NCBI RefSeq assembly: GCF_963921235.1 | Contig: NC_086108.1 | Coordinates: 49,602,001-49,666,000 of the forward strand | Reading direction: 5' to 3' | From: Mobula hypostoma | Taxonomy: Eukaryota | DNA length: 64,000 nt | In this document: positions 1,945 through 61,335 of the stretch, piece by piece | How the letters are laid out: every line of letters begins with the position of its first letter | Numbering within the stretch: position 1 is the first letter of the stretch | The notes under the pieces: generated by a model | Databases searched by the model: none | Told to the model about the DNA's origin: nothing | Seen by the model: the letters and a program-made list of their open reading frames with translations, nothing else | Position numbers and translations under genes: made by a program

Positions 1945-2292
1945 AACACACATCAAAGTTGCTGGTGAACACAGCAGGCCAGGCAGCATCTCTAGGAAGA
2001 GGTACAGTCAACGTTTCAGGCCGGGACCCTTCGTCAGGACTAACTGAAAGAAGAGCTAGTAAAAGATTAGAGAGGGGGAGGGGAGATCCAAAATGATAGG
2101 AGAAGACAGGAGGGGGAGGGATGGAGCCAAGAGCTGGACAGGTGATTGGCAAAAGGGATACGAGAGGATCATGGGACAGGAGGCCCAGGGAGAAAGAAAA
2201 GGGGGAGGGGGGGAAACCCAGAGGATGGGCAAGGGGTATAGTGAGAGGGAGAAAAAGGAGAGAGAGAGAATGTGTGTATATAAATAAATAAC
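1945..2292 (-). mobile_element. Penelope-like element 3' terminal fragment
   Basis: Closely similar to the 3' end of the PLE at 35528-35930; contains a hammerhead motif. Confidence 0.85.
2006..2041 (-). ncRNA. Minimal type I hammerhead ribozyme motif (GUU triplet variant)
   Basis: Minus strand reads AGTC-CTGACGA-AGGGTCCCGGCCT-GAAA-CGTT-GACT. Confidence 0.6.
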
Positions 2293-5190: not shown

Positions 5191-5290
5191 ACTACAGACA
5201 CTGTAAATGCAGCAATAAAGAATATAGCGAATGCAAAGGATTCTGTGAATGAAATGATGAAATTGATAAGTGATTTACTACTTTCAATGG
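5191..5290 (+). CDS. LAMC2: Laminin gamma-2-like penultimate exon (TTDTVNAAIKNIANAKDSVNEMMKLISDLLLSM)
   Basis: tttcAG acceptor, G|gtaagc donor, 100 bp, phase 0 to 1. Confidence 0.85.
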
Positions 5291-10142: not shown

Positions 10143-10830
10143 ATTCAGGGCCCCAAACAGTTCTCCGAGGTGAAGCAACACTTCACCTGCAAATCCGCTG
10201 TGGTCATCTATTGTAGCTGGTGCTCCCGACGGAGCATCTTCTACACTGGTGCAACTTGTGATAAATTGGAAAAGCAGAATTTCCCAGTGGCCAATCATTC
10301 CACGTCAGTCTATAACCACCTCTTGCACCACTCTCAGGACACTCTCAATTGAGGCCACTCTCAAGGTGGAGGAGCAACACCTCATATTCTCTCTGGGTAG
10401 CATCCAACCTGATGGCATGAACATCGATTTCTCCTTCTGGTATTTTTTTCTTTCCTCCTTCCCTCTTCTTCTATTCCCCACTTTGGCCTCTTACATCTTA
10501 TCACCTGCCTGTGAACCCCCCCCCCCCTGCCGTGCCCTTCCATCTCACCTTTCCCCTATGGTCTACCCTCCTCTCTTATCAGATTTCTTCCTCTGGCCCT
10601 TTACCTTTCCCACCCACCGAGCTTCACCTATCACCATCTGGCTATCCGCTCCCCTCCCCCAATCTTTGATATTCTGTTGTCCTCCTGATTCCTTTCCAGT
10701 CCAGAAGAAGGGTCCCAAAATGTGGACTACTTATTCGTTTCCATAGATGCTGCCTGACCTGCTGAGCTCCTCCAGCATTTTCTTGTGTTGCTTTGGATTT
10801 CCAGCACTTTCAGAAACTCTTGTGTTTATG
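10143..10830 (+). mobile_element. Decayed Penelope-like element 3' part (GIY-YIG endonuclease remnant and terminus)
   Basis: HFTCKSAVVIYCSWCSR and EATLKVEEQHLIFSLGSIQPDGMNIDFS match the PLE at 35957-36330; degenerate hammerhead near 10700. Confidence 0.85.
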
Positions 10831-13204: not shown

Positions 13205-13636
13205 TGGATCGGGACTACAGAGCGGCGTGGGAGCTGAATTCTGAAGGAAGGCAGTTTTTAAAAAAAACTTCTTTGAGTGCAAGAAGGATGAGACTGTGCA
13301 GGCACGTGACGTAACAGGACAGCACGGAGAGTTTAAAAAGGAGACCACCCTATACAGCGGGCAGCTGTCGGAGCGGGCAGCAGAGTGAGTGGTAGCAGAG
13401 TGTAGGGCTTTGGTTTCAACGGGCTTCGGCGGTAAATGGGAAGAGGCAAGAGCAAAGCGCCAACTCTTTTTTTTCTCCCCCTCCCCCCCTTTCGCAAATA
13501 GGCCCGGACAGACAGAAACAGCAGGGCTCTCACAGCTAACGGTATGAGTTAATGGTTTTAAAAGTTCATCTGTTTGGCGAGGTAAGTGGGTGAGTAGACT
13601 TATTTTTCCTGTTTCATTCCTGTAGAATTAGATAGC

Positions 13637-14956
13637 ATGCCTGCAGGGTTAGTGCTTTGTTCAGGGTGTCAGATGTGGGAATCTTGGAAGACCTCCAGCC
13701 TCCCTGATGGCCACATCTGCGCCAGGTGCACCGAGATGCAGCTCCTCAGAGACCGTGTTAGGGATCTGGAGCTGCAGCTTGATGACCTACTGCTTATCAG
13801 GAAAAGTGAAGAGGTGATAGACAGGAGCTACAGAGAGGTAGTCATCCCTACGCTACAGGGGTCAAAAAACAGGGTCACTGTCAAGCGAGGGAAGGGAAAT
13901 GCCAGGATAGTGGAGAGCACACCTGTGGCTGTCCCCCTCAGCAACAAATATCTTGTTCTGGATGCTGTTGAGGGGGATGACCTGACAGGGGACGCCCACG
14001 GTGACCAGGTCTCTGGCACTGAGCCTGGCGCTGTTGTGCAGGAGGGAAGGAGGGAGAAGAGGAATGCGGTAGTCATAGGGGATTCCATAGTCAGGGGAAC
14101 GGACAGGAGATTCTGTGAGCCTGATAGAGATACCCGCATGGTGTGTTGCCTCCCAGGTGCCAGGGTACGGGATGTCTTGGATCGGGTCCAGAATATTCTG
14201 AAGGGGGAGGGTGAGCAGCCAGTTGTCTTGGTACATGTTGGTACCAATGACATAGATAGGACAACGGAGGAGGTCCTGAAGAGAGATTTCTGGGAGTTAG
14301 GAAGGAAGCTGAGAAGCAGGACCTCCAGGGTAGTAATCTCGGGATTGCTACCTGTGCCACGTGCTAGCAAGGGCAAGAATGGTAGGATCAGGCAGATGAA
14401 TGTGTGGCTGAGAGACTGGTGCAGGGGGCAGGGCTTCAGATTCTTGGATAATTGGGATCTCTTCTGGGGGAAGTATGACCTGTTCAAAATGGACAGGTTA
14501 CACCTGAACCCGAAGGGGACCAATATCCTGGTGGGAAAGTTTAATAGAGCTGTTAAACTAATTTGGCAGGGGGATGGGAACCAGAATGATAGAGTGGAAG
14601 AAGGAGAAAACAGAAATAAATCTAAGATAGTGAGCAGTAAAGATGTCAGGAAAGACAGGCAGGTGATGGGGCAAATTTGTAGCCATTGGGATGAGTTGCA
14701 GTGCAATAAAGTTGCAGTGAAATCAAAGCAAAATGTCCCAAATACTGGTCTTAAGGTGTTATACCTAAATGCACGCAGCATAAGGAATAAAGTGGATGAT
14801 CTTGTTGTACAGCTACAGATTGGCAGGTATGATATTGTGGCCATTACTGAGACGTGGCTAAAGGATGCATGTCTCTGGGAGGTGAACGTCCAAGGATACA
14901 CAGTGTATCTGAAAGATAGGAAGGTACCAGAGGGGGAAGTGTGGTTTTATTGGTAA
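13637..14956 (+). pseudogene. CR1 ORF1 (zinc finger, leucine zipper, SGNH/GDSL esterase) fused in frame to the ORF2 N-terminus
   Basis: CSGC...CARC, LRDRVRDLELQL, VIGDSIVR, CLPGA, HVGTND, DRLHLN, then reads on into LKVLYLNARSIRNK...ITETWL. Confidence 0.9.
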
Positions 14957-17547
14957 GAAATGATATTAAATCATTAGAAAGAGGTGATATAGGATTGGAA
15001 GGTGCAGAATCTTTATGGGTTGAGCTAAGAAATTGCAGGGGTAAAAGGACCCTGATGGCAGTTATTTATAGGCCTCCAAACAGCTGCAGGGATGTGGACT
15101 ACAAATTACAACAGGAAATAGAAAAGACTTGTCAGAAGGGCAGTGTTATGATAATCGTGGGGGATTTTAACATGCGAGTGGATTGGGAAAATCAGGTCGG
15201 CACTGGATCTCAAGAGAGAGAATTTGTAGAATGTCTGCGAGATGGCTTTTTAGAACAGCTTGTTGTTGAGCCCACTAGGGGATCGGCTGTACTGGATTGG
15301 GTATTGTGTAATGAACCGGAGGTGATTAGAGAGATTGAGGTGAAGGAACCCTTAGGAGGCAGTGATCATAACATGATTGAGTTCACTGTGAAATTTTAAA
15401 AAGAGAAGCCGTAATCTGATGTGTCGGTATTTCAGTGGAGTAAAGGAAATTACAGTGGCATGAGAGAGGAACTGGCCAAAGTTGACTGGAAAGGGACACT
15501 GGCGGGAAAGATGGCAGAGCAGCAGTGGCTGGAGTTTATGTGAGAAGTGAGGAAGGTGCAAGACAGGTATATTCCAAAAAAAAAGAAATTTTCGAATGGA
15601 AAAAGGATGCAACCGTGGCTGACAAGAGAAGTCAAAGCCAAAGTTAAAGCAAAGGAGAGGGCATACAAGGAAGCAAAAATTAGTGAGAAGACAGAGGATT
15701 AGGAAGTTTTTAAAAGCTTACAGAAGGAAACTAAGAAGGTCATTAAGAGGGAAAAGATTAACTATTAAAGGAAGCTAGCAAATAATATCAAAGAGGATAC
15801 TAAAAGCTTTTCCAAGTATATAAAGAGTAAAAGACAGGTGAGAGTAGATATAGGACCGATAGAAAATGATGCTGGAGAAATTGTAATGGGAGATAAGGAG
15901 ATGGCGGAGGAACTGAACGAGTATTTTGCATCAGTCTTCACTGAGGAAGACATCAGCAGTATACCGGACACTCAAGGGTGGCAGAGAAGAGAAGTGTGTG
16001 CAGTCACAATTACGACAGAGAAAGTACTCAGGAAGCTGAATAGTCTAAAGGTAGATAAATCTCCTGGACCAGATGGAATGCACCCTCATGTTCTGAAGGA
16101 AGTAGCTGTGGAGATTGCGGAGGCATTAGCGATGATCTTTCAAAAGTCGATAGATTCTGGCATGGTTCCGGAGGACTGGAAGATTGCAAATGTCACTCCG
16201 CTATTTAAGAAGGGGGCAAGGAAGCAAAAAGGAAATTATAGACCTGTTAGCTTGACATCGGTGGTTGGGAAGTTGTTGGAGTCGATTGTCAAGGATGAGG
16301 TTACAGAGTACCCAGAGGCATATGACAAGATAGGCAGAACTCAGCATGGATTCCTTAAAGGAAAATCCTGCCTGACAAACCTATTACAACTTTTTTGAGG
16401 AAATTACAAGTAGGCTAGACAAGGGAGATGCAGTGGATGTTGTATATTTGGATTTTCAGAAGGCCTTTGACAAGGTGCCACACATGAGGCTACTTAACAA
16501 GATAAGACCCTATGGAATTGCGGGAAAGTTACCTACATGGATAGAGTGTTGGCTGATTGGCAGGAAACAGAGAGTGGGAATAAAGGGATCCTGTTCTGGT
16601 TGGCTGCCAGCTTCCAGTGGTGTTCCACAGGGGTCCGTGTTGGGGCCACTTCTTTTTACATTGTACATGAATGATTTGGATTATGGAATAGATGGCTTTG
16701 TGGCTAAGTTTGCTGATGATATGAAGATAGGTGGAGGGGCCGGTAGTGCTGAGGAAACGGAGAGTCTGCAGAGAGACTTGGATAGATTGGAAGAATGGGC
16801 AGAGAAGTGGCAAATGAAATACAATGTTGGAAAATGTATGGTTATGCACTTTGGCAGAAGAAATAAACGGGCAGACTATATTTAAATGGGGAGAGAATTC
16901 AAAGTTCTGAGATGCAATGGGACTTGGGAGTCCTCGTACAGGATACCCTTAAAGTTAACCTCCAGGTTGAGTCGGTGGTGAAGAAGGTGAATGCAATATT
17001 GGCATTCATTTCTAGAGGAATAGAGTATAGGAGCAGGGATGTGATGTTGAGGCTCTATAAGGCACTGGTGAGACCTCACTTGGAGTACTGTGGGCAGTTT
17101 TGGTCTCCTTATTTAAGAAAGGATGTGCTGACGTTGGAGAAGGTACAGAGAAAATTCACTAGAATGATTCCGGGAATGAGAGGGTTAACATATGAGGAAC
17201 ATTTGTCTGCTCTTGGACTGTATTCCTTGGAGTTTAGAAGAATGAGGGGAGACCTCATAGAAATGTTTTGTATTTTGAAAGGCATGGACAGAGTGGATGT
17301 GGCAAAGTGTTTCCCATGATGGGGGAGTCTAGTATGAGAGGGCATGACTTAAGGATTGAAGGACGCCCATTCAGAACAGAAATGCTAAGAAATTTTTTTT
17401 AGTCAGAGGGTGGTGAATCTATGGAATTTGTTGCCACGGGCAGCAGTGGAGGCCAAGTCATTGGGTGTATTTAAGGCAGAGATTGATAGGTATCTGAATA
17501 GCCAGGGCATCAAAGGTTATGGTGAGAAGGCGGGGGAGTGGGACTAA
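14749..17547 (+). pseudogene. CR1 ORF2 (AP endonuclease + reverse transcriptase), disrupted
   Basis: Consecutive ORF fragments 14941-15399, 15838-16398, 16433-16885 and 16912-17319 carry APE and RT motifs. Confidence 0.92.
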
Positions 17548-17634
17548 ATGGGAGAATGGATCAGCTCATGATAAAATGGTGAAGCAGACTCGATGGGCCG
17601 AATGGCCGACTTCTACTCCTTTGTCTTATGGTCT

Positions 17635-21879: not shown

Positions 21880-21990
21880 TTCTCTGATGAAAAGATATTG
21901 ACCTGAAAATGCTGTCTGACCTGTTGAGAATTTACAACATTTTCTGTTTGGATTTCAGATTTCCAGAATGTGCAATATTTTTATTTTGTA
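21880..21990 (+). mobile_element. Old Penelope terminal remnant with a degenerate hammerhead core
   Basis: ctgatga-aaagatattgacct-gaaa followed by tgctgtctgacctgttgag...ttccag. Confidence 0.55.
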
Positions 21991-32425: not shown

Positions 32426-32528
32426 TTATCCAGATGTCTTGATGTAGAGCTGATTCTGCAGGATGTAATCAATAACTGGCTGGCTCAAATATTCCACCAC
32501 ATGTCCATCACCATGTTGCAAAGCAAGT
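32426..32528 (-). CDS. NMNAT2: NMNAT2 terminal coding exon ([33 protein letters not shown])
   Basis: gatAG acceptor, phase 2, TAA stop. Matches human [33 protein letters not shown]. Confidence 0.96.
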
Positions 32529-35527: not shown

Positions 35528-37072
35528 AACAACAGGAATTCTGCAGCTGCTGGAAATTCAAGCAACATACATCAAAGTTGCTGGTGAACGCAGCAGGCCA
35601 AGTAGCATCTATGGGAAGAGGTGCAGTCGACGTTTCAGGCCGAGACCCTTCGTCAGGACTAACTGAAGGAAGAGTGAGTAAGGGATTTGAAAGCTGGAGG
35701 GGAAGGGGAGATGCAAAATGATAGGAGAAGACAGGAGGGGGAGGGATAGAGCCGAGAGCTGGACAGGTGATAGGCAAAAGGGGATACGAGAGGATCATGG
35801 GACAGGAGGTCCGGGAAGAAAGACAAGGGGGGGGCGGTGACCCAGAGGATGGGCAAGAGGTATATTCAGAGGGACAGAGGGAGAAAAATGAGAGTGAGAG
35901 AAAGAATGTGTGCATAAAAATGAGTAACAGATGGGGTACGAGGGGGAGGTGGGGCCTTAGCAGAAGTTAGAGAAGTCAATGTTCATGCCATCAGGTTGGA
36001 GGCTACCCAGACGGAATATAAGGTGTTGTTCCTCCAACCTGAGTGTGGCTTCATCTTTACAGTAGAGGAGGCCGTGGATAGACATGTCAGAATGGGAATG
36101 GGATGTGGAATTAAAATGTGTGGCCATTGGGAGATCCTGCTTTCTCTGGCGGACAGAGCGTAGATGTTCAGCAAAGCGGTCTCCCAGTCTGCGTCGGGTC
36201 TCACCAATATATAAAAGGCCACATCGGGAGCACTGGACGCAGTACATCACCCCAGTCGACTCACAGGTGAAGTGATGCCTCACCTGGAAGGACGGTTTGG
36301 GGCCCTGAATGGTGGTAAGGGAGGAAGTGTAAGGGCATGTGTAGCACTTGTTCCGCTTACACGGATAAGTGCCAGGAGGGAGATCAGTGGGGAGGGATGG
36401 GGGGGACAAATGGACAAGGGAGTTGTGTAGGGAGCGATCCCTGCGGAATGCAGAGAGGGGGGGAGGGAAAGATGTGCTTAGTGGTGGGATCCCGTTGGAG
36501 GTGGCGGAAGTTATGGAGAATAATATGTTGGACCCGGAGGCTGGTGAGGTGGTAGGTGAGGACCAGGGGAACCCTATTCCTAGTGGGGTGGTGGGAGGAT
36601 GGAGTGAGAGCAGATGTACGTGAAATGAGGGAGATGCGTTTAAGAGCAGAGTTGATAGTGGAGGAAGGGAAGCCCCTTTCTTTAAAAAATGAAGACATCT
36701 CCCTCGTCCTAGAATGAAAAGCCTCATCCTGAGAGCAGATGCGGCTGAGATGGAGGAATTGCGAGAAGGGGATGGCATTTTTGCAAGAGACAGGGTGAGA
36801 AGAGGAATAGTCCAGATAGCTGTGAGAATCAGTAGGCTTATAGTAGACATCAGTGGATAAGCTGTCTCCAGAGACAGAGACAGAAAGATCTAGAAAGGGG
36901 AGGGAGGTGTCGGAAATGGACCAGGTAAACTTGAGGGCAGGGTGAAAGTTGGAGGCAAAGTTAATAAAGTCAACGAGTTCTGCATGCGTGCAGGAAGCAG
37001 CGCCAATGCAGTCGTCGATGTAGCGAAGGAAAAGTGGGGAACAGATACCAGAATAGGCACGGAACATAGATT
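35528..37072 (-). mobile_element. Young 5'-truncated Penelope-like retroelement (RT C-terminal part, Zn finger, GIY-YIG endonuclease, hammerhead-bearing terminus)
   Basis: ORF 36384-37067 LFLRYIDDCIG/LPFLDL/YYKPTDSHSYL. After a frameshift in a C-run: PCKRNKCYTC and VMYCVQCSRCGLLYIGETRRRLGDRFAEH to the stop at 35957. 13-bp TSD GTGATCATAATAT at 35515-35527 and 37073-37085. Confidence 0.95.
35625..35660 (-). ncRNA. Minimal type I hammerhead ribozyme motif, intact core
   Basis: Minus strand reads AGTC-CTGACGA-AGGGTCTCGGCCT-GAAA-CGTC-GACT. Confidence 0.75.
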
Positions 37073-38291
37073 GTGATCATAATATGATAGAATTCACCCC
37101 TCAATTTGAGAAGGAGAAGCTAAAGTCAGATGTATCAATATTACAATAGAGTAAAGAGAATTGCAGAGGTACGAGGGAGAAGCTGACCAAAACTGATTGG
37201 AAGAGAACCCTAGCACGGATGACAGCAGAGCAGCAATGGCTGTAATTTCTGGGAGCAATCGGAAGACACACAATAGATACATCCCAAATAAGAAGAGGTA
37301 TTCTGACGGCAGGATGACTCAGCTGTGGCTGACAAGAGAAGTCAAATCCAACATAAAGCCAAAACGAGGGCAAATAACAGAGCAAAAATGAGTGGGAAGT
37401 TAGAGGATTGGGAGGCTTTTAAAAATCAGCAGAAGACGACTAAAGAGTCATAAAGAAGGAAAAGATGGAATATGAAGGAAAGCTGGCCAATAATATTAAA
37501 GAGGATACCAAAAGTCTCTTCAGATATATAAAGACTAAAAGAGAGGTGAGAGTAGATATTGGACGCTGGAAAGGTAGTAATAGGGGAAAAGGAAATTGCG
37601 GACGAACTGAATAAGTATTTTGCATCAGCCTTTACTGTAGAAGACACTTGCAGTACGACGGAGGTTCAAGAGTGTCGGGGGCAGAAGTGAGTGCAGTAGC
37701 CATTACTAGGGAGAAGGTACTTGAGAAACTGAAAGATCTGAAGATAGTTAAGTCACCTGGACCAAGATTTCTGAAAGAGGTGGCTAAAGAGATTGTGGAG
37801 GTATTATTAATGATCTTTCAAGAATCAGTAGATTCTGGCACAGTTCCAGAGGATTGGAGAATTGCAAATGACACTCCACTCTTCAAGAATGGAGACAGGC
37901 AGAAGAAAGGAAATTACAGGCCAGTTAGTCTGACCTCAGTGGTTGGAAAGATGTTTGAGTCGATTGATAAAGATGTGGTTTTAGGGTACTAGGAGTCACA
38001 TGATAAAATAGGCCAAATTCAGCATGGTTTTCCTATAGGAAAATCTAGCATGACAAATCTGTTAGAATTATTTGAAGAAATAACAAGCAGGAGAATCGGA
38101 TGTTGTGTACCTGGGTTTTCAGAAGGCCTTTGACAAGGTGCCACACGTAAGGCTGCTTAACAAGTTAAGCTATTACAGAAAAGATACTAGCATGGATAGT
38201 GCATTGGCTGATTGACAGGAGGCAAGGAGTGGGAATAAAGGGAGCCTTTTCTGGTTGGCTGCCAGTGACAAATGGTATTCACTTCTTTTTA

Positions 38292-38523
38292 GCAACACAC
38301 ATCAAAGTTGCTGGTGAACGCAGCAGGCCAGGCAGCATCGATAGGAAGAGGTACAGTCAACGTTTCGGGCTGAGACCCTTCATCAGGTTAGTCCTGACGA
38401 GGGGTCTCAGCCCGAAACGTCGACTGTACCTCTTCCTATCGATGCTGCCTGGCCTGCTGCGTTCACCAGCGTTTTTTGGTGTGTGTTGCTTGAATTCCCA
38501 GCATCTGCGGATTTCCTCGAGTA
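38292..38523. mobile_element. Fold-back Penelope-terminus mini-insertion with 12-bp TSD
   Basis: CACTTCTTTTTA at 38280-38291 and 38524-38535; ~95-bp inverted arms joined at 38387-38393. Confidence 0.9.
38390..38425 (+). ncRNA. Minimal type I hammerhead ribozyme motif, intact core
   Basis: AGTC-CTGACGA-GGGGTCTCAGCCC-GAAA-CGTC-GACT. Confidence 0.75.
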
Positions 38524-39601
38524 CACTTCTTTTTACATTGTATGTCAAAGATTTGGATGAAGGAATAGATGGCTTTGTAGCCAACTTTGTGGATGATATG
38601 AAGATAGGTGGATGAGCAGGTAGTGTTGAGGATGCAGAGTGACTACCGAAGGACTTAGACAGATTAGGAGAATGGGCAAAGATGCGGCAGATGGAATACA
38701 GTGTCAGGAAGTGTATGGTTATGCACTTTGGTAGAAAAAATAAGCATAGACTATTTTCTAACTGGAGAGAGAATTCACAAATCTGAGGTGTAAAGGGACT
38801 TGGGAGTCCTCGTGCAGGATTTCCTAAAGGTTAATTTGCAGGTTGAGTCAATGGAGAGGAAGGCAAATGCAATGAAATGAAATGTACTCATTTCAAGAAG
38901 ATTAGAATATAAATGCAATGCTAAGGCTTTATAATGCACTGGTGAAGCTTCATTTGGAGTATTATGAGTAGTTTTGGGCCCCTTATCTAAGGAAGGATGT
39001 GCTTACATTGAACAGTGTTCAAAGGAGGTTCATGAAAATGATTCTGGGATTGAAAGGCTTGTCATATGAGAAACTTTTGATGGTTCTGAGCCTGTACTCA
39101 CTGGAATTCAGAAAAGTGAGGGGGGATCTCATTGAAAGCTATCGAATGTTGAAAGGCCTTGATAGAGTAAATTTGGAGAGGATGCTCCCTTTCGTAGGGG
39201 AGTCTAAGGCTAGAGCACACAGCCTCAGAATAGAGGGATGTCCATTTAGAAAGGTGATGAGAGGAATTTTTTTTAAGCTAGAGAGTGGTGAATCTGTCAA
39301 ATTAGTTGCCACAGATGGCTGTGGAGGCCAAGTCATTGGGCTTATTTAATGCACAGGTTGACAAATTTTTATTAGTCAGGGCAAGAAGCGATACAGGGAG
39401 AAAGTGGAAGACTGGAGCTGAGAGGGAAATGGATCAGCCATGATGAAATAACGGAGCCAAGTGGTCAAATTCTGCTCCTATATCCTGTTGTCTTAAGGAA
39501 TAAGACACCAGAACTAATTCAACCTGCTGATTTCTATCCCATCAGTCTACTGACAACTATCAAATCAATAGATGTTACTGCTATCATGTCAAATTTCCTT
39601 A

Positions 39602-40770
39602 AGACCATAAGAAGTAGGAGCAGAATTAGGCCATTCAGCCCATCAAGTCTGCTCTGCCATTTATCATGGCTGATCCTGGATCCCACTCAACCCCATTCAC
39701 TTGCCTTCCCACTGTATCCTTTGATGCCCTGACCAAGCAGGAAACAATCAATTCCGCCTTAAATATACCCACGGACTTGACCTCCACCGCAGTCTGTGGC
39801 AGAACATTTCACAGACCCACTACTCTCTGGCTAAAAAAAAATTCCTTCTTACCTCTGTTCTAGAAGGTTTTGAGGCTGTGCCCTCTAGTCTTGGATACAC
39901 CCACCACAGGAAACATCCTCTCCACATCCACCCTATCTAGTCCTTTCAACATTCGGTAGATTCCAATGAGATCACCATGCATTCTTCTAAATTCCAGTGA
40001 GTACAGGTTCAAAGCTGCCAAGCGCTCCTCGTATGTTGATCCTTTCATTCCCAGTGAACTTCCCCTGGACTCTCCAATTACAACACATCCTTTCTGAGAT
40101 ATGGGGCCCAAAACTGTTGACGTTACTCCAAATGCAGCCTGACTAGTGTCTTATAAAGGGTCACCATTCTTTCCTTGTTTTTATATTCGATTCCCCTTGA
40201 AATAAATGCCAACATTGCATTTGCCTCCTTTACCACAGACTCAACCTTTAAATTAACCTCCTGGGAGTCTTGCACAAGGACTCCCAAGTCCCTCTGCACC
40301 TCTCATGTTTGACCCTTCTCCCCATTTAGATAACAGTCTGCACTACTGTTCCTTTTACCAAAATGCATTATCATACATTTCCCAATATTGTATTCCATCT
40401 GCCACTTTTTTGCCCATTCTTCCAATTTGTCTGTCCTGCTGCAATCGCATTGCCTCCTCAGCACTATCTACACCCCACTTTTCTTCGTATCATCCACAAA
40501 CTTTGCCACAAGGCCATCAATTCCATTATCAAAATCAATGACAAACAATGTGAAAAGTAGCGGTCCCAATACTGACCCCTGAGGAACACCACAAGATATC
40601 GGCAGCCAACTAGAAAAGGCCCCTTTTAAACCCAGTCGCTGTCTCCTGCCTGTCAGTCCATCCTCTATCCATGCCAGTATCCTTCCTGTAACGCCATAGG
40701 ATTTTACCTTGTTAAGTAGCCTCATGGGTGCCACCTTATCAAATGCCTTCTGAAAATCCAAGTAAATGAT
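39602..40770 (-). mobile_element. 5'-truncated CR1 LINE, tail-to-tail with the preceding CR1
   Basis: ORF 40468-40761 DFQKAFDKV...GVPQGSVLGP...FVDDTK. Confidence 0.9.
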
Positions 40771-41006
40771 GTTCTCCTCCCTTCCTCACTGGGCTATGTT
40801 TATATCAATACAATATGCTTGACCTTTATACTACAAACAGAATGGACAAACATGCTGCTCTAACCAATAATACTCACATCCTGACAAAAGTATAAATATA
40901 ATAGCATCCTCATAGAAAATGCAGGTGATTTGAAAGATCCATTACATTTATTAAACCCACATTAAAATAGGCCAGTTGCTATCTAAATGTAAAGAATGTT
41001 GCATAC

Positions 41007-41074
41007 CTGCTTTTGGTAGAACTCACAACAGACATTGGGTGATTAGTATCATCCTTTACTGCCAGTATATTATC
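41007..41074 (-). CDS. NMNAT2: NMNAT2 exon 10 equivalent (DNILAVKDDTNHPMSVVSSTKSR)
   Basis: aacAG acceptor, AG|gtatgc donor, 68 bp. Contains the VSSTxxR nucleotidyltransferase motif. Confidence 0.95.
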
Positions 41075-42389
41075 CTGTTTAAGAACAGAAAAGATGAATG
41101 CTTTTTACCAGTACAGCATCTAATAAGAAGGTACAAATGCCATACAAATGTATAATCTAAGCAAAACTGCAAAACGAGTTTGTTACCACTATTACTAAAG
41201 ATCATTGGGAATACAGAATTAACAGGCTTGTTCCCTCTCTCTCATCTCAAGGACCTGGATGTGAAGTGACTTTGTGTCCTTTTCTCTCAGTCTTTAAAGG
41301 CTTGGTAAGAATCTGCAATTGAATGTAACCCAGAAGCACTAAGCTCCTTTAGTTTGACTCTATTTTAACTCAGTATGATAAAAACTAATTGGAAAATGCA
41401 AAGGTTCATGTGATTCCATAGTCTAGACTCTTATGAAGTGTCAATTTATAGCACTTTGTTTAGACAAAGTAGCTGGAGCACAACATTTCCCCTTTCACTG
41501 AGTGATCTTTGCTGGCAAAATGTGTCCACCTACTTCACAGTTGCTTTGGTTTTTCTTGTGACTGGGGATAAAAGGGAAGGGAAAGGAAATGAGATGGTAT
41601 CATCCTCAGGCATTTAATTGCCAACAATTCCATTGCAAGGCTGGGAATTTCTGCCAGCATGAACAGGTGATTGATCTCTCTGTGAAGGAGGGGAGGGTAG
41701 AATAACAAACCTTAGCTGGGCAACTTTCCTCCAATTTGGTATCCTGCTATTAAAGGGAGAGTGTTACAGCAATTTCCTGTACTAATCCTTAGAGATTTTG
41801 TGACTGTTATTTCTTTTGGGGAATACTTTTTACAACAAAATACTGTATCAATATAGAAGACACACAGAAACTGTAGAATTTAAGAGTTTTTACCGTTTAT
41901 TCCTTGTAACTATACAAATTTGGTTCTGTTTCCCCTCAGCATCTATAACGGCTGTTGAAAACATACTATACTAAAAATTGTATTAAAAATTTTCCAGATG
42001 CCGTGTCCATAATGAGAGAACAGAGGAGTGATCCGTCTGAGACGTTATGTTCTACCTAACTTAGAACCCTGCATCAGATATTGACTGCTGGCAACAGATC
42101 CTGGACAGAGTTAGTTGATTTTTATTCCATTACACTATTGTTCATTGTATCTGGGTGTTGTGGTGCAGATGTAAATGTATAAAAAATTCTGATTAATTGG
42201 CATTGGTTAGCAGTGTATGATGCACGTATTGTGACTTTGGGACTGTTAATAGCACCAAACTGTTTGGGGAACATTCATGGCTATGCATTCACCTTAAATA
42301 TTTCACCTGTTGCACAAATTAACATATGAAATAACAAAAGGCGCACGACCCCATCTGATCTGTTCAACAGTGCATCATATAACAGACAC

Positions 42390-43345
42390 AGTTCAAAGTA
42401 AATTTTATTATCAAAGTACGTACTGTATATATCACTTTATACCAACCTAAGATTAATTTTCTTATGGCATACTCGAAAAATCTGTAAAATAATATTTATA
42501 ACAGGATCAATGAAAGATCAACCAGTGCAGAAGACAGCAAACTGCGCAAGTATAAATAAATTGCAATAGATAACATGAACGTGAGATGACGAGTCCTTGA
42601 AAGTGAGTTCAATGGTTATGGGAACATTTCAATGATGGGACAAATGGAGTTGGGTGTAGTTATCTCCTTTTGTTCAAGCCAGATGGTTGAGGGGTGGCAA
42701 CTGTTCTTGAACCTGGTGATGTGAGTCCTGAGGCTCTTGTACCTTCTACCTGATGGCAGCAGCAAGAAGAGAGCATGACCTGGGAGGTGAGGGTCTTTGA
42801 TGATTGATGCTGCTTTCCTACGACAGCGTTGCATTTAGACGTGCTCAATGGTTGGGAGAGCTCTAACCATGATGTACTGGGCTAAATCCACTACTTTTTG
42901 TAGGATTTTTCATTCATAGGCATTGGTGTTTCCATACCAGGCCACGATGCATCCAGTCAATACAGTCTCCACTGCTGATCTATAGAAGCTTGTCAAAGTT
43001 TTCGGTGGCATGCTGAATCTCTGCAAATTCCTGAGGAGATAGAAGTGCTGCCGTGCTTTCTCTGCAATTGCACTAACGTGCTGGGCCCAGGACAGATCCT
43101 TTGAAATGGTAACACCTGGGAATTTAAAGCTGTTAACCGTCTCTACCTCTGATTCTCCAATGAGGACTGGCTCATGGACCTCTGGTTCCCTCTCCTGAAG
43201 CCTATAATGAGTTTCTTGGTCCTGCTGACATTGAGTGAGATCTCAGTGAGCACACCAGCCAGTTGGTCAGCACAGTTCTTTAGTATGTGGCCAGGTACCT
43301 CATCTGGTCCGTATAATCTCCATGGATTCACCTTACTGAAGTCAG
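42390..43345 (-). mobile_element. Decayed, internally deleted Rex1/Babar-type LINE
   Basis: GPDEVPGHILKNCADQLAGV joined directly to LNVSRTKKLIIGFR; RCRRKAASIIKDPHLPGH. Confidence 0.8.
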
Positions 43346-44472
43346 ACGACATTGTGCAGTGTTGTGAGCACTTGATTAGAGTTGGCTGTTGGTGGTATGT
43401 AAACTGTGGTTCAGATTATAGATGAGAACTCCAGAGACAGATAGAACAGGAAACCTTTGATCATTAGGTGCTCAAGTTTGGGGGAACCCGAGTTCATCAG
43501 AATTGCCATGTCAGAGCACCTACGAGAGTTAACCACAAAACACACACCTCCTCCTTTTGCCTTTCCCGAGTCAGCAGTTTGGTCCATTCTGTGAATGAAG
43601 AATCCTGGTTTGACTGCGACACCTGGTGTGCCCGGAAAAAGCCACGTTTCAATAATGCATACAATTGAGTCTCTGATACAGCAGTCTTGCCCTCAATTCC
43701 TCACTTTTGCTCTCCAGCGACTGCACATTTGCTGACAAGATGCTGGGTTGAGGAGGCCTCATCCTTCTGCATTTCAGCTTGCCTTAGAGTCCCCCTCTCC
43801 TTTCTCGCTTTCAGTCATGGTGATGAACCTTAGAGTGCCATGCCTGACTGGTCCGGGTTCTTCACTCCATCTTGAGATATGAAGATCAATGAGTTGATTT
43901 CAAAGTCCAATACTTGAACAGAAGTCATGTGCTGCAGAGTGCAGTGAAAGTAATCCAAAAGAAATATATTTAAGAGAAACTTTGGATCAATTTTCTGCAG
44001 CCCATAGAACGTCACCGAAGATCATTGACGTCATCTTGAAAGAGTGGAATTGTTGGATATTCATTAATTACTTATTGGAATTTCAGAGATTCACCTTATC
44101 TCTTAATGACCAGTTCATATTGTTGAGACATTGTTGGCAATGGTCTCCAAGTACACCAAATTACATCATTTGATAGGCTAATAAAGATTAAATATCCCAA
44201 GTTTAATAAATTATATAATCTTTGGACAAGCAAACAGAACCTGCTCACTGAAGCATTAACGGAGTTTCCCTTAGTTATTGTCTATTTCTAATTGGTTTGA
44301 ACTCAATGCAACCAACAATGGTTTTGTCGTTTGAATATTTGTTATCAAAATAACAAGTCATACTACAAGTCATACAGTAGCACTTTATTGTAAAATCAAT
44401 TTCTGCATCCAAACCAGCCGGGCAAATAATTTTAGGGGAAAAAACTCTCAGAATTAAATAGCTAAGACTTAC

Positions 44473-44574
44473 CTTGTACTTGCGAAGTATTGAGGAATGA
44501 TTGAGGATCCTGTCTGTGTCTACACTGTCACGTGGGACGACCACTATTCCAAAATCACCCACTATAACTTCCAC
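44473..44574 (-). CDS. NMNAT2: NMNAT2 exon 9 equivalent ([34 protein letters not shown])
   Basis: cctAG acceptor, AAG|gtaagt donor, 102 bp, near-identical to the human peptide. Confidence 0.96.
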
Positions 44575-44869
44575 CTAGGGAAGGAATTTTCAAGATACAA
44601 TAGTAATCACAATGATATAGCCATGATTTGTGAATTCAGATGGATGATTTCTTTTCCCCAAGCTGCTATAATGTGTGAGTCACCTGTGTTAAGGACTGGA
44701 TGCATGAGGAACAGAAGGAAGCTAATGGCCAAAATAATTCACAACTTTTAATGAATTCCCATTTTTTGTCTTGTACTTATATAAGTGGATAAACCCCAAA
44801 TTAAACAAGTGCATCATGAAGAATCTCTGAATGAACTCAGTGACTGATGAAAGTAGCTTGAAAGAGAAG

Positions 44870-45452
44870 CGCAAAATGGGTTCTTACAGTTATATGAGAC
44901 CTTGGTCGGACCCCACTTGGAGTACTGTGTTCAGTTCTGGTCACCTCACTACAGGAAGGATGTGGACTGTATAAAGAGAGTGCAGGGGAGATTCACAAGG
45001 ATGTTGCCTGGATTGGGGAGCATGCCAAATGAGAATAGGTTGAGTGAACTTGGCCTTTTCTCCTTGGAGTGACAGAGGATGAGAGGTGATTTAATAGAGG
45101 TGTAGTAGATGATGAGAGGCAATGATAGTGTGGATAGCCAGAGGCTTTTTCCCAGGGCTGAAATGACTAACACAAGGGGGCATAGTTTTAAGGTGCTTGG
45201 AAGTAGGTACAGAGGGGATGTCTGTTTTTCACTCAGAGTGCTGGGTGCGTGGAATGCACTGCCGGCGACAGTGGTAGAGGTGGATACAATAGGGTCTTTT
45301 AAGAGACTCTTAAATAGGTACATGGAGCTTAGAAAAATAGAGGGCAATGCGGTAGGGAGATTCTAGGCAGTTTCTAGAGTAAATTACATGGTCAGCACAA
45401 CATTGTGGGCCGAAGGGCCTGTAATGTGCTGCAGATTTCTATGTTCTATGTT
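44870..45452 (+). mobile_element. CR1 3' fragment in the NMNAT2 intron between the exon 8 and 9 equivalents
   Basis: LYETLVGPHLEYCVQFWSPH; tail ttctatgttctatgttc. Confidence 0.9.
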
Positions 45453-45696
45453 CATACCTCAGATGCTTCTCATCTTGTCTCATCCAAGGAAAGCCAGACA
45501 ACTTGCAGGCAGGAAGCATTTTTATACACTTCATTTTGTTTTCAGTACAATACTTACAGTTTTATTTCTAAACTCATTCTTTTAACATGAACTGCCAAAG
45601 TTATAAAAACATCTCTACAGTAAAGTCAACCATTATTAGCCGTGAACTCCGCAAATATAAACAGCAAAATAAGTTATAGCAGGAAGATATACTTAC

Positions 45697-45773
45697 ATCT
45701 TCCTCATTCCATAGGCCAGGGATACAAAAGGATTCCAGCAAATCACTGCCACACAGCAACAAGATCCGGAGCT
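45697..45773 (-). CDS. NMNAT2: NMNAT2 exon 8 equivalent ([26 protein letters not shown])
   Basis: ttcAG acceptor, GAT|gtaagt donor, 77 bp. Contains the NMNAT motif LLCGxDLLESF. Confidence 0.96.
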
Positions 45774-46163
45774 CTGAATGGGTGGAAGATGAACAATATT
45801 TTACACTGAGAAAGGTGTCCTTCCAAACACAGGGGGTTTACATTGAATTAAGAACTATCACACAATATGTGGAGCAGAAGTTCTACTTGGGACAGAGAAG
45901 ATAAAGGAATTTTAGCCAATACTTTCACTGAATACACAATATCCTTTCTGCCACATTTACTTCTCTTTCTCTTTTGTGCACTAAATGAAATTGGAGAACA
46001 GTGAAATGGCAGCTAACAATACAAAGAATATACTTGTTTCAACGATGAGACTATTGTTTTCTGTATGGCAAAGTGGAAGCTGGAATAGGCAAGGGTTAAA
46101 GATACACACATCAAAGTTGCTGGTGAACGCAGCAGGCCAAGCAGCATCTATAGGAAGAGGCGC

Positions 46164-46199
46164 AGTCGACGTTTCAGGCTGAGACCCTTCGTCAGGACT
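46164..46199 (-). ncRNA. Minimal type I hammerhead ribozyme motif, sense to NMNAT2 pre-mRNA
   Basis: Minus strand reads AGTC-CTGACGA-AGGGTCTCAGCCT-GAAA-CGTC-GACT. Confidence 0.75.
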
Positions 46200-46599
46200 A
46201 ACTGAAGGAAGAGTGAGTAAGGGATTTGAAAGCTGGAGGGGGAGGGGGAGATGCAAAATGATAGGAGAAGACAGGAGGGGGAGGGATAGAGCCGAGAGCT
46301 GGACAGGTGATAGGCAAAAGGGGATACGAGAGGATCATGGGACAGGAGGTCCGGGAAGAAAGACGGGGGCGGGGGGTGACCCAGAGGATGGGCAAGAGGT
46401 ATATTCAGAGGGACAGAGGGAGAAAAATGAGAGTGAGAGAAAGAATGTGTGCATAAAAATGAGTAACAGATGGGGTACGAGGGGGAGGTGGGGCCTAGCG
46501 TTCTCGGCTCTATCCCTCCCCCTCCTGTCTTCTCCTATCATTTTGCATCTCCCCCTCCCCCTCCAGCTTTCAAATCCCTTACTCACTCTTCCTTCAGTT

Positions 46600-46635
46600 A
46601 GTCCTGACGAAGGGTCTCGGCCTGAAACGTCGACT
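46600..46635 (+). ncRNA. Minimal type I hammerhead ribozyme motif
   Basis: AGTC-CTGACGA-AGGGTCTCGGCCT-GAAA-CGTC-GACT. Confidence 0.75.
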
Positions 46636-47962
46636 GCGCCTCTTCCTATAGATGCTGCTTGGCCTGCTGCGTTCACCAGCAACTTTGATGTGTGTTGCTT
46701 GAATTTCCAGCATCTGCAGAATTCCTGTTGTAAGGGTTAAAGATATGCAGGCCAGATTGACTGTGGCAGTATGCAGTCAAACTCAGACAAGGGAGGTCAT
46801 TGAAGGGAGACTGCCAGAGCCAATCTACTGCAGACAGACAGGTGAGAATCACTGGCAGTGTGTAATCAACCAGGAAGAACATAGCTTCCCATTGCACAGT
46901 AGGGGGTGCCGGAGACAGACAATATAGGAATACCGGAAGGGTGTGAACTACACCCAACAAGTAAGGGACAATTGATTCACAAACTTCAAAGTACCACCCG
47001 TTGTCAGCTTGTAGTTCCTTTTGAGTTTGAGCATCTCCATTGTGAAAGGCGGTTGATCTTGCAAGTAAGGAATTCAAACTACGCAATTTACCACATGGCC
47101 AACATCTGTAACTGATAAGCCAATTCCGTATAAAAACAACAGTTTTCTGTTCAGACTTCAGAACAGTGTGAGTGACAGGGGCCACGCTGTTCTCCTTGTG
47201 CACGAGGAAAATAAAGTGTGCGTGTTCAGGGCCCAGCTATTCTATTTTATTTTTGGCGATAACAGTTACTTGGGGGTTCTGTCAAGGTGCCTAACACTTG
47301 GCTCCATTATATGGCAGAAAGGAATTCAGCCCTGGTAACCGATCAGTCCTAAATCCTAGGCTGCTCATACTTGAGAAAGGGACTGAGTCTGCTGTTGGAA
47401 TGCAAATTCCCTCCTGTGTGGAGTGGTCAAGGTATGCCGACACCTAGTCAGGGTCATTGACAAAGGACTCGCATTGTGTGGGAGTTGTGAGAGTGCCTGT
47501 GTTCTGGGCCCAGTTACTTTATATTATTATCCATCACAACATGACATTGAGTTCTTTAGTTAAGTTCATCATTGTCTAAACCAGCACTTGATGCTCCTCC
47601 TGCACGCCCTGATGCTTTACCAAATTGCTGCAGTCCTTGTGGTGTTTGTTTTGCCATTGGAAACGACACTAATGAATGGCATCCTTAACCATTTTAGAAT
47701 CAAAGTTTTTAAAAGCAGCTTTAGTTTACAAACAAAAAAAAAATCATTACTCTCATTTTCTAGCCCTATCCTCCCTTACCTGGCATAAATGTAACTGTGA
47801 AGAGGGACAAACAGTCAGGTTGTTCAATCCAGGACCAAAATGCCACCATGGCTTAGCCCAAAGTAATTGGGCATGAAAATTTTCTGTGGATTTGGAATCA
47901 CTTATTGACTGGACAAGCTGAGGGCATCAGAGTTTATCCCTAACTGACATAGATGAACTAGA

Positions 47963-48179
47963 ACAACAAACAACAGGAATTCTGCAGATGCTGGAAATTC
48001 AAGCAACACACATCAAAGTTGCTGGTGAACGCAGCAGGCCAGGCAGCATCTCTAGGAAGAGGTACAGTCGACATTTCAGGCAGAGACCCTTCGTCCTGAC
48101 TAAGGATCTCGGCCTGAAACGTCGACTGTACCTCTTCCTAGAGATGCTGCCTGGCCTGCTGCGTTCACAAGCAACTTTG
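47963..48179. mobile_element. Fold-back Penelope-terminus mini-insertion with 14-bp TSD
   Basis: ATAGATGAACTAGA at 47949-47962 and 48180-48193; arms join at GTC (48093-48095) within the hammerhead region. Confidence 0.9.
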
Positions 48180-48445
48180 ATAGATGAACTAGATTGATTT
48201 TGATTTCCCATGGTCACAGCATAGGTAACAAATCTATATTTTAAAATTCTGGGATATTTAAATAACTAAATTTAAAATTATGTCTCCAGTTAGACCTGGA
48301 CTTATCTATATAACCACAATCCTTAAACATAATACATTCAAGGCCATCTCCACTGCATTCATGATTAATGTTTAGAGGAGTCAAATACTTGTACAAAACT
48401 GAGTACAAAGTTTGTGTATATGCATGGCTGTTTAAATTTGATGGT

Positions 48446-59520: not shown

Positions 59521-61335
59521 AAAGGGAATTCCAGAGGCAGGAGAGAGGTACCGGTCAAAGATGATTGTAAGGGGACCCTAGCAGGGATGACATCAGAACA
59601 GCAATGGCTGATGCTTTAGGGAGCAGGTCATAAGACGCAGGAGAGGTACATCCCAAGGATGAAGGAGTATTCTAAAAGGAAGATGATGCAACTACAGCTG
59701 ACAAGGGAAGTGAAGGACAGCATAAAAGCAAAAGAGAGGGCATATAATATGGCAAGATTAAGTGGGGAATTAGAGCATTAAGAAGCTTTTAAAAACCAAC
59801 AGTTGGTAACTGCAACAGCCGTAAGGAGAGAAGAGGTGAAATGTGAAGGTAGGCTAGCCAATAACAGAAAGGAGGATACCAAATTTTTTTTCTGAAATAT
59901 AACATAGAAGAGAGGTCAGAGTGTCTATTGGATCACTGGAATATGACACTGGAGAGGTAATAATGGGGACAAAGAAATGGCGGACGAACGTACTAAGTAT
60001 TTTATGTCAGTCTTCACTGTGGAAGGTAGTAGCAGTATGCCAGAAATTTGAGAGTGTCAGGGGACAGCAGTGAGTGTAGTTGCTATTACTTCAGAGAAGG
60101 TGCTTGGGAAGCTGAAAGGTTTGAAGGAAGATAATGACCTGGACTTGATTGACTACATGTATCTGAAAGAGTTAGCTGAAGAGATTGTGGAGACATTAGC
60201 AACGATCTTTCAAGAATCACTAGATTCTGGAATGGTTCTGCAGGACTGGAAAATGGTAAATGTCACTCCATTCTTCAAAAAGGAAGGAGACAGAAGAAAG
60301 GAAATTATAGGCCAGTTAGCCTGATTTCAGCGGTAGGGAGGATGATAAGGTCCATTACAAAGGATGAAATTTTGGAGTACTGTACTTGGAGTCATGTGGA
60401 GTCATAGGCCAAGTGCTGCACGTGAAGACATGAAGGTAGAGCCCATGGTATCACAGAAAAGTTACAATCACAGATAAGAGATTGGCTGACTGGCAGGAGG
60501 CAAAGAGTAGGAATAAAGGGAACCATTTCTGCTTGGCTGCCAGTGACAAGTGGTGGTCTGCAGGGTCCAATGTTGAGACCACTTCTTTTCGCATTATATG
60601 TCAATGTTTGAGTGCCAGAATTGATGGTCTGCTAATGATATGAAGAAAGGAGAGGGGTAAGCAGTGTTGAAGAAGCAGGAAGCCTGCAGAAGGACTTAGG
60701 CAGTTTGGGAGAATGGACAAAGAAGTGGCAGATGGAATATAGAGGAGGGAAGTGTATGGTCCTGCACTTTAGTAGAAGAAATATTGGTGTATACTATTTT
60801 CTAAAAGGGGAGAAAATTCTAAAATCAGATGTGCTTGCATTTTAATGGGTCCAGAGGAGGTTCACAAGAATGATTCCAGGAATTAAAGTGTTAATGTATG
60901 AGGAGCAATTGGTGGCTTTGGGCCTGTATTCACTGGGGTTTAGAAGAACGATGGGGATCTCACTGAAACCTATTGAATATTACAAAGGCCTAGATACAGT
61001 GGATGTGGAGAGGATATTTCCTATAGTGTGAGAGTCTATGACCAGAGGGCACAACCTCAGAATGGAGGGTTGTCCATTTAGAACAAAGTTGAGGAGGAAT
61101 TTCTTTAGCCAGAGGGTAGTGAATCTGTGGAATTCATTGCTACAGACAGCTGTGGAGACCAAGTCATTATGTATACTTAAAGCAGAGGTTGATAGGTTCT
61201 TGATTAGTCAGAGCATCAAAGGTTACGGGGAGAAGGCAGCAGAAAAGCGTCGAGAGGGATAATAAATCAGCCATGATTGAATGACAGAGCAAACTCGATG
61301 AACTGAATGGCCTAATTCTGTTTAATATCTTATGG
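59521..61335 (+). mobile_element. Decayed CR1 ORF2 and 3' end with internal deletions
   Basis: EKVLGKLKGLK...DWKMVNVTPFFKK; TRGHNLRMEGCPFRT. Confidence 0.85.

What the first reader, a model, noticed from the sequence alone, without database searches (positions are those of the whole stretch)
35625..46635. Multiple intact minimal hammerhead ribozyme motifs in Penelope termini inside NMNAT2 introns
Seen in sequence: AGUC-CUGACGA-(stem II)-GAAA-CGUC-GACU at 35625-35660(-), 38390-38425(+), 46164-46199(-) and 46600-46635(+), a GUU variant at 2006-2041(-), and broken copies near 48095, 10700 and 21885. Stem I is AGUC/GACU. Stem II is AGG/CCU or GGG/CCC, a compensatory change between copies. Stem III is reduced to the palindrome ACGU. 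Established: Penelope-like elements carry minimal type I hammerheads that lack a stable stem III and are thought to cleave as dimers. Inference: two intact copies are sense to NMNAT2 pre-mRNA and could in principle dimerise and cleave the introns.
Basis: partly seen in the sequence, partly recalled or inferred. Interest (0 to 1): 0.7.

Follow-up and report, generated by a model that had tools for sequence, protein, structure and literature searches.

The report
Penelope retrotransposon hammerheads in NMNAT2 introns
The small self-cutting RNA motifs are real, but they are a few of about 46,000 near-identical copies spread by a young Penelope-type jumping gene in what is likely a ray genome, and the two that face the same way as NMNAT2 are predicted to fold shut and likely do not cut the gene's RNA.

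Summary
The motifs are at the stated coordinates. They are the known minimal type I hammerhead in the terminal repeat (pLTR) of a Neptune-type Penelope-like retroelement, with 46,145 pattern matches genome-wide. NMNAT2 runs on the minus strand, so two intact copies are sense. They lie 10.5 kb and three exons apart. One is locked in a 202-bp foldback; the other prefers an inactive hairpin. Sense copies are not depleted in the gene (4 sense, 2 antisense, 3.8 expected). The claimed stem II compensation is a register error; real compensation appears only between subfamilies. Intron cleavage is not supported. The side result is more interesting: 31 of 82 arms stop just 5' of the motif on first passage, but only 5 of 88 on second passage, and the repeated part mostly matches its own downstream copy. 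That fits a circular template, proposed in 2014 and not shown in the papers I read. The scan noted this family and this reading before, on other DNA of this and other genomes.

The parts
35625..35660 (-). Intact minimal type I hammerhead, sense to NMNAT2, last intron; predicted cut between 35629 and 35628
35529..37065 (-). 5'-truncated Neptune-type Penelope-like element (RT C-terminal part, CX4CXXC linker, GIY-YIG with CCHH, frameshifted), long 3' terminus, 13-bp target-site duplication, inserted into a LINE remnant
   Evidence: (PF01541, E 5e-4, below cut-off); LINE remnant read from repeats and translations
35957..36889 (-). 310-codon stop-to-stop frame ending in the GIY-YIG endonuclease domain
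38291..38517 (.). Head-to-head foldback insertion: short-terminus arm 38291-38387(-) with broken motif, long-terminus arm 38387-38517(+); 12-bp TSD
38390..38425 (+). Intact motif, antisense to NMNAT2; carries a private A-to-G change at the unpaired position after A9
46096..46731 (.). Head-to-head foldback insertion: short-terminus arm 46096-46496(-), long-terminus arm 46502-46731(+); 202-nt arms 98% complementary; 14-bp TSD
46164..46199 (-). Intact motif, sense to NMNAT2, predicted to be fully paired with the opposite arm
46600..46635 (+). Intact motif, antisense to NMNAT2
47970..48181 (.). Foldback insertion, both motifs broken at the junction; 14-bp TSD
2006..2041 (-). GUU-variant motif in a solo arm (1945-2292), outside NMNAT2
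10698..10815 (+). Decayed pLTR end of an older subfamily (B), with endonuclease remnants upstream (about 10140-10440); outside NMNAT2
21880..21990 (+). Decayed pLTR end of the most diverged subfamily seen (C); outside NMNAT2
45697..45773 (-). NMNAT2 coding exon (AG/GT bounded)
44473..44574 (-). NMNAT2 coding exon
41007..41074 (-). NMNAT2 coding exon (68 nt)
32426..32528 (-). NMNAT2 last coding exon to the stop codon

Best explanation
The motifs are passenger copies of the minimal hammerhead in the terminal repeat of a very abundant, young Neptune-type Penelope-like retroelement, and in NMNAT2 introns they are predicted to fold shut and likely do not cut the pre-mRNA. Shown in sequence: reverse-transcribed copies end at two fixed sites about 65 and about 100 nt downstream of the cut site, insert with 11-16-bp target duplications, and about half of sampled arms are in head-to-head pairs with one long and one short end. 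Inferred: such pairs arise when both nicked target strands prime, one at each start site. Inferred (about 0.4): in the element's own cycle the ribozyme is switched on by the element's protein and cuts the tandem transcript at two pLTRs; the unit-length RNA is ligated into a circle, and reverse transcription runs more than once round it, rebuilding the upstream pLTR. Short stubs would come from uncut RNA or from a first-pass block at the motif's 5' edge. Outside that complex, as in a host intron, the motif would stay inactive.
For: Copy number 46,145. Full-length units of about 3.5 kb with a 1,043-codon frame (1,016 aa from Met) carrying RT and GIY-YIG, the motif in both pLTRs and ATG at +139. 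Linker CX4CXXC and CCHH as in Neptune/Nematis (PMC8557442). 37 of 38 foldbacks pair a long and a short end. 33 of 38 share an 11-16-nt flanking repeat, against 0 of 200 random pairs at 10 nt or more. Folding penalties of 68 and 8-9 kcal/mol for the two sense copies. 4 sense and 2 antisense pattern matches in 289,880 bp of NMNAT2, 3.8 expected. Contigs from RNA-like runs start matching at the last splice acceptor, and one joins across the last two introns. Neutral-like decay within the family; conservation and compensation between subfamilies. Literature: the S. mansoni monomer was inactive and the dimer weak (PMC4209133); the anole PLE hammerhead did not cleave without protein and no RNA-seq reads ended at its cut site (PMC11167929). 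Circle step: 88 of 91 second-pass arms cross the cut site; 5 of 88 end at -20..-49 against 31 of 82 on first pass (p = 1.8e-7), with no wall seen out to -3370; upstream and downstream copies agree at 366 of 401 polymorphic sites, 252 expected.
Against: No cleavage assay and no raw RNA reads were available; energy models omit tertiary contacts and proteins. The orientation count in NMNAT2 is tiny (n = 6) and cannot exclude weak selection. Against a single clean circle: 19 of 42 two-pLTR insertions differ between their copies at one or more polymorphic sites near the pLTR, some as linked blocks, in either copy (48 of 408 sites). That needs template switching or gene conversion. In the anole system ribozyme mutants inserted normally in vitro, and unprocessed RNA was the main substrate. 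There is no sharp peak of ends at the cut site (8 of 94 arms end within 9 nt of it).
Confidence: 0.85

Rival explanations
1. One reading: sense copies dimerise through ACGU, in cis or with any of the many other transcribed copies in trans, and cut NMNAT2 introns often enough to affect splicing or mRNA level.
For: Two intact sense copies in the window and five in the gene. Family sequence is abundant in RNA-like contigs, so partners exist. Conserved intronic hammerheads are known in amniotes, for example in RECK (PMC6155905).
Against: The copies are in different introns; folding penalties are 8-68 kcal/mol; the inactive dimer is favoured by about 19 kcal/mol. No depletion of sense copies. The insertions are young and TSD-flanked, with neutral-like decay. 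A spliced form across the last two introns exists in a relative's RNA-like contig.
Confidence: 0.07
2. Long copies come from uncut, more-than-unit linear transcripts (read-through of tandem copies) with template jumps. The hammerhead is not needed to make the template, and no circle is formed.
For: In vitro, ribozyme mutants of the anole element insert normally. Foreign haplotype patches near the pLTR occur in part of the insertions. Near-full tandems exist (upstream copies reach -3073 and -3370).
Against: Second-pass ends fall at a smooth rate of about 0.001 per nt, like the rate inside the ORF, with no wall where a fixed start site would lie. A linear RNA carrying the same structure at both pLTRs should show the -20..-49 pile-up on both passes, and it does not. 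Near-full tandem parents are a minority even among these long copies (3 of 42 beyond -2500).
Confidence: 0.4
3. In the young subfamily the motif no longer catalyses and is kept as a structural or protein-binding signal next to the reverse-transcription start sites.
For: G10.1-C11.1 is a G.U wobble in 86 of 113 arms. With C at N7, GACG pairs with CGUC and closes the core in the monomer. There is no sharp peak of ends at the cut site.
Against: All 11 non-CpG core positions are the same in subfamilies A and B while the flanks differ. Subfamily C changes stem I on both sides (C2.1-G1.1 to U-A) and also has U at 11.1. This is the pattern of a catalytic fold under long-term selection.
Confidence: 0.15

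Closest known systems
Minimal type I hammerheads (min-HHR) in pLTRs of metazoan Penelope-like elements, including fish Neptune, Poseidon and Xena (Cervera and De la Pena 2014, PMC4209133)
   Same: Type I core, 4-5-bp helix I, an unpaired base between 9 and 10.1, palindromic 15.2-16.2 with no stem III, location in pLTRs, many dispersed single copies and close opposite-strand pairs.
   Different: Stem II is 4 bp rather than the 7-8 bp of S. mansoni, and 10.1-11.1 is mostly G.U. There are at least 46,145 copies, against about 4,000 in coelacanth and 9,000 in Xenopus there, and the copies here are very homogeneous.
EN+ PLE insertions of the Neptune/Nematis type with pLTR, inverted 5'-truncated copy and 30-40-bp tail (Craig et al. 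2021, PMC8557442; Arkhipova et al. 2013, PMC3846280)
   Same: RT plus C-terminal GIY-YIG with CCHH and a linker Zn finger, partial tandems, head-to-head inverted copies, tail on one end only, TSDs.
   Different: No qualitative difference. Here the long/short pairing (37 of 38) and the pass-dependent truncation are counted.
Poseidon_Ac of the green anole (Frangieh et al. 2024, PMC11167929)
   Same: Two internal reverse-transcription start sites downstream of the hammerhead that define the tail. That paper shows nicking and extension of both strands, which would explain the foldbacks here.
   Different: Different clade. There the ORF starts inside the ribozyme; here the ATG is at +139, beyond both start sites.
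Conserved intronic hammerheads of amniotes (RECK, CTCL, DTNB; passages of PMC6155905)
   Same: Type I hammerhead inside a vertebrate intron, of retroelement origin.
   Different: Those are conserved at one site across species and drawn with tertiary contacts. These are young, TSD-flanked members of a 46,000-copy family with no stem III.
Metazoan non-LTR retrozymes (bioRxiv 10.64898/2026.07.22.740005)
   Same: Type I hammerhead, PLE-related pLTR sequence.
   Different: The window's copies are not head-to-tail arrays of short units; they are truncated ends of an autonomous element.

Membership tests
PLE minimal type I hammerhead | Core CUGANGA, GAAA and UH in type I order with helix I of 4-5 bp | tested here: met
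PLE minimal type I hammerhead | Unpaired base between 9 and 10.1 | tested here: met
   A at that position in 111 of 113 arms whichever base is at 11.1; lower energy
PLE minimal type I hammerhead | G10.1-C11.1 pair | tested here: inconclusive
   G-C in 24 of 113 young arms and C at 11.1 in 13 of 22 subfamily B copies; G.U in 86 of 113
PLE minimal type I hammerhead | Palindromic 15.2-16.2, no stem III | tested here: met
   ACGU
PLE minimal type I hammerhead | Located in both pLTRs of the element | tested here: met
   (for example L232, L233, L244)
PLE minimal type I hammerhead | Self-cleavage as a dimer or with protein help | not testable with these tools
   needs an assay
EN+ Penelope-like element, Neptune/Nematis type | Single ORF with RT and C-terminal GIY-YIG bearing CCHH | tested here: met
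   (RVT_1 E 4e-5, GIY-YIG E 1e-3, both below Pfam cut-offs; motifs read directly)
EN+ Penelope-like element, Neptune/Nematis type | CX2-5CxxC finger in the RT-EN linker | tested here: met
   CKRNKCYTC in P0001; definition
EN+ Penelope-like element, Neptune/Nematis type | Partial tandems, inverted truncated copy, 30-40-bp tail at one end, TSD | tested here: met
EN+ Penelope-like element, Neptune/Nematis type | RT tree placement in Neptune rather than Nematis | not tested
   no reference set fetched; Neptune is preferred because it is the one reported widely in vertebrates
Domesticated intronic hammerhead (RECK type) | Canonical fold able to act as a monomer | tested here: not met
   no stem III; inactive folds preferred
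Domesticated intronic hammerhead (RECK type) | Conserved at the orthologous site across species | not testable with these tools
   no related genomes held
Non-LTR retrozyme | Head-to-tail tandem short units, each with a hammerhead | tested here: not met
   window copies are solo or head-to-head

The most novel reading that the evidence does not exclude
The genome holds a fossil record of ribozyme-made circular templates. Copies that have already crossed the ORF run through the hammerhead and on into a second unit with no end wall and without the first-pass pile-up, and they repeat their own lineage's variants. So the minimal hammerhead works in vivo only inside the element's own protein complex, where it makes the RNA circle that regenerates the pseudo-LTR, and tens of thousands of intronic copies stay silent. 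This family is young, has many intact ORFs and gives large counts, so it would make the open question of pLTR regeneration directly testable.
Probability: 0.35. Interest if true: 0.62.

Novelty: new member of a known kind. Interest (0 to 1): 0.25.

Why it matters
For NMNAT2 it probably does not matter: the motifs look like inert insertions. If a sense copy did cut, thousands of introns in this genome would carry latent RNA cutters, which would be a notable burden or regulatory resource. The better use of the family is mechanistic. How Penelope-like elements rebuild their pseudo-LTR was called unexplained in 2008 (PMC2377424), and the circular-template idea of 2014 was a proposal. The pass-dependent truncation pattern narrows the models and points to a simple RNA experiment.

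Tried and rejected
Rfam scan: no hammerhead family hit, only a weak mir-3926 hairpin match on the 48031-48162 foldback and two chance-level matches. A DNA search of G000 with the pLTR gave no match because common words are skipped; patterns were used instead. The first fuzzy-match script timed out. Pfam on the whole window frames gave nothing at E<=0.001. PDB searches with two NMNAT2 exons gave no match. Sequencing runs: no RNA holder listed on record; the laid contigs are 'RNA?' guesses and cannot show ends, strand or level. Rejected: CCU as simple CpG decay of CCC, because U is the majority allele and tracks subfamily markers. Rejected: a sharp peak of cDNA ends at the cut site. Not supported: a spliced pLTR intron ending at the CAG just 5' of helix I; no recurrent upstream exon in stubs and no CT..AC joint among the 15 joints shown of 35. 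Not resolved: which copy carries the foreign patch in discordant tandems; both directions occur. A genome-wide orientation test was not possible without annotation. Search by sequence of earlier findings gave nothing. Lunse et al. (PMC5785218) is not held; I saw only its title in a reference list.
Full report
Observation. The four intact motifs and the GUU variant are at the stated coordinates, and broken copies lie near 48095, 10700 and 21885. Each reads AGUC, CUGANGA, a 13-nt stem II segment, GAAA, CG, UC (UU at 2006), GACU. That is a type I hammerhead with ACGU in place of stem III. A 35-nt pattern has 46,145 exact matches in G000 (3.48 Gb) and the reversed control has 0. A flank 25-mer at +31..+55 from the cut site has 86,985 matches. 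A 25-mer at -60..-36 has 26,007, but it spans subfamily-variable sites. Rfam does not call these motifs.

Stem II. In 113 arms covering both positions, A/U occurs 86 times, A/C 23 times and G/C once, with three other single cases; the G/C arm is the window's own 38390 copy. The A therefore does not covary and is best read as the unpaired base between 9 and 10.1 described for these motifs (PMC4209133, parts 1-2 of 4 read). The stem is then GGGU/GCC(C/U), which is also 1.4 kcal/mol more stable. Real compensation exists between subfamilies. I fetched 30 copies of an older subfamily B by a downstream anchor (7,875 matches) and 29 relatives of the 21885 copy, subfamily C. I kept 22 and 12 of them, chosen by eye as spanning the motif. 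B matches the young family at 33 of 36 motif positions and 11 of 11 non-CpG core positions, but at only 10 of 33 upstream and 3 of 16 downstream positions, compared without gaps. In C, whose loop II is one base longer (so the printed labels from 11.4 on are shifted by one), position 2.1 is U in 11 of 12 and 1.1 is A in 7 of 11, replacing C-G with U-A. C copies are much decayed, so this is suggestive, not clean. Within the young family, core, stem and flank positions decay alike: 6/765, 13/1190 and 56/3767 (core vs flank p = 0.17).

Host gene. The exon at 44473-44574(-) matches NMNAT2 proteins; the best named hit is a ray protein at 97%, so the genome is likely a ray's. That protein maps ten exon matches on the minus strand over C50:49,634,429-49,924,501. 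Exons in the window are 45697-45773, 44473-44574, 41007-41074 and a last exon from 32528. Contigs from four RNA-like runs begin to match exactly at 32528, and one from another organism also covers 44472-44572 with a gap fitting the 68-nt exon (RNA status is a guess). The sense copies are therefore 35625(-) in the last intron and 46164(-) three exons upstream. The 2006, 10700 and 21885 copies are downstream of the gene.

The element. 35529-37065(-) is a 5'-truncated element with RT and GIY-YIG remnants and a 13-bp target duplication. Longer relatives give a 679-aa stretch with RT motifs, a CX4CXXC linker and a CCHH GIY-YIG, the Neptune/Nematis signature (passages of PMC8557442). Full units are about 3.5 kb with a 1,043-codon frame, Met at +139 from the cut site, and the motif in both pLTRs. 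38291-38517, 46096-46731 and 47970-48181 are single head-to-head insertions with 12-14-bp duplications. In 665 kb of fetched DNA, 148 arms at 84% identity or more were scored out of 172 hits. Their 3' ends fall mainly in two classes, about +57..+78 and +95..+100 or a few bases beyond. Of 38 foldbacks, 37 pair one of each, and 33 have an 11-16-nt flanking repeat, against 0 of 200 random pairs at 10 or more. The tail on one end and the inverted copy are known (passages). Two internal start sites and extension of both strands were shown in vitro for the anole element (PMC11167929, parts 1-2 of 4). Priming from both nicks, one at each site, is my inference.

Can the intronic copies cut? For 46164(-), RNA polymerase passes the complementary arm first; forcing the hammerhead fold costs 68 kcal/mol. 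For 35625(-), an upstream CCUUCAG captures the core and the penalty is 8-9 kcal/mol. Even the bare motif prefers to pair GACG with CGUC (-10.0 vs -6.0). The active dimer scores -9.5 against -28.3 for the best inactive dimer. These are nearest-neighbour energies without tertiary contacts or protein. Across 289,880 bp of NMNAT2 the genome-wide pattern occurs 4 times sense and twice antisense, with 3.8 expected in all. By a stricter motif test five sense copies are intact, four of them solo. The numbers are small but show no purge. Published relatives are inactive as monomers and weak as dimers, or need the element's protein. I judge meaningful intron cleavage unlikely (0.07).

What the truncation points say. 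In 100 arms selected only by the downstream flank (the first 100 matches on C1), ends are rare near the cut site (8 of 94 at risk, 0.0045 per nt), peak at -30..-39 (16 of 73, 0.022 per nt) and fall to about 0.001 per nt beyond -100. Earlier scan notes read this pile-up as the start of the RNA, which prompted a test. I took 103 copies that contain the ORF's N-terminus and so have already crossed a whole unit: 90 fetched from the top 94 of 150 listed hits and 13 picked for long frames, four of which are among those 94. Of 91 that reach the cut site of the upstream pLTR, 88 cross it, and only 5 of 88 end at -20..-49, against 31 of 82 on first pass (Fisher p = 1.8e-7). The contrast holds for young first-pass arms alone (17 of 45, p = 6e-6) and for long-end and short-end arms separately. 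Second-pass ends continue smoothly to -3370. In 42 of 46 insertions where both copies could be read, upstream and downstream copies agree at 366 of 401 polymorphic sites (252 expected) and share 73 of 197 rare variants. So long copies were not made on an RNA that starts at about -35, and the pile-up is not a plain sequence stall met at every passage. A circle made by cutting at two pLTRs and ligating, as proposed in 2014, explains this most simply; on a second round the RNA would already be paired with cDNA and lose its structure. Against it, 19 of the 42 insertions show one or more differences at polymorphic sites near the pLTR, some as linked blocks in either copy (48 of 408 sites, 134 expected at random), and uncut multi-unit RNA with template jumps is not excluded. 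I put the circle at about 0.4. Schostak et al. called pLTR regeneration unexplained (passages of PMC2377424), and a 2019 review still treats the circle as a possibility (passages of PMC6765202). My searches listed no paper reporting this pass-dependent pattern or hammerhead counts for a ray. A 2026 preprint sampled one chondrichthyan for retrozymes (part 1 of 5 and passages). I did not open the supplements of any paper; those of PMC4209133 and the preprint may list such motifs. A note from this same genome (e1-9819010), seen after my test, reaches the same reading; it is not independent support.

Verdict. The motif is real and belongs to a known kind of system. The compensation claim is wrong as stated, and the NMNAT2 cleavage idea is unsupported. 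The scan has reported this family many times, including sense copies in other introns of this genome. Interest 0.25; new member of a known kind. The most novel reading, genomic evidence for a ribozyme-made circular template, has probability about 0.35 and interest about 0.6.

Noticed in passing
window 35645-35669 (-): Just 5' of the motif, CCUUCAG can pair with CUG-AC-GAAGG and sequester the CUGACGA core. This predicted off-switch hairpin coincides with the zone where first-pass copies stop, and two independent foldbacks (48090 and C1:2811861) have nearly the same junction inside it.
   Followed up: partly
window 35661-35690 (-): A polypyrimidine tract and CAG sit directly 5' of helix I, like a splice acceptor; subfamilies B and C have the same kind of tract. 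No spliced form was found.
   Followed up: partly
G000, one search list: Many copies keep the whole 1,043-codon frame and are 96-100% alike in protein, so the family is very young and may still be active.
   Followed up: partly
L350, L355, L356, L360, L380, L244: Within one insertion the two pLTR copies differ by a linked block of family variants between about -380 and +27 while more distal sites mostly agree; ORF haplotypes across copies look mosaic. This suggests frequent template switching or gene conversion.
   Followed up: partly
L362, upstream copy -456 to -322: The upstream and downstream copies differ by a cluster of seven A/G differences in about 135 nt, unlike the scattered differences elsewhere; RNA editing or local conversion are possible.
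   Followed up: no
G000:C1:601692, C1:3315537: Some apparently solo stubs carry about 10 nt of the long terminus in reverse just inside the TSD, that is, a foldback with a tiny second arm.
   Followed up: partly
window 1644-1886, 2659-2847, 5062-5340 (+): Open frames with coiled-coil-like sequence on the plus strand, probably exons of a convergent neighbour. Laminin gamma-2 is recalled from human synteny; Pfam gave only weak unrelated matches.
   Followed up: partly
window 13600-17560, 37100-39340, 60160-61300 and others: Numerous LINE (CR1/L2-like, label recalled) remnants; the 35529-37065 element is inserted into one of them.
   Followed up: no
G000:C50:49634429-49924501: NMNAT2 coding exons span about 290 kb on the minus strand; the small exon for residues 177-190 was not located.
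   Followed up: partly
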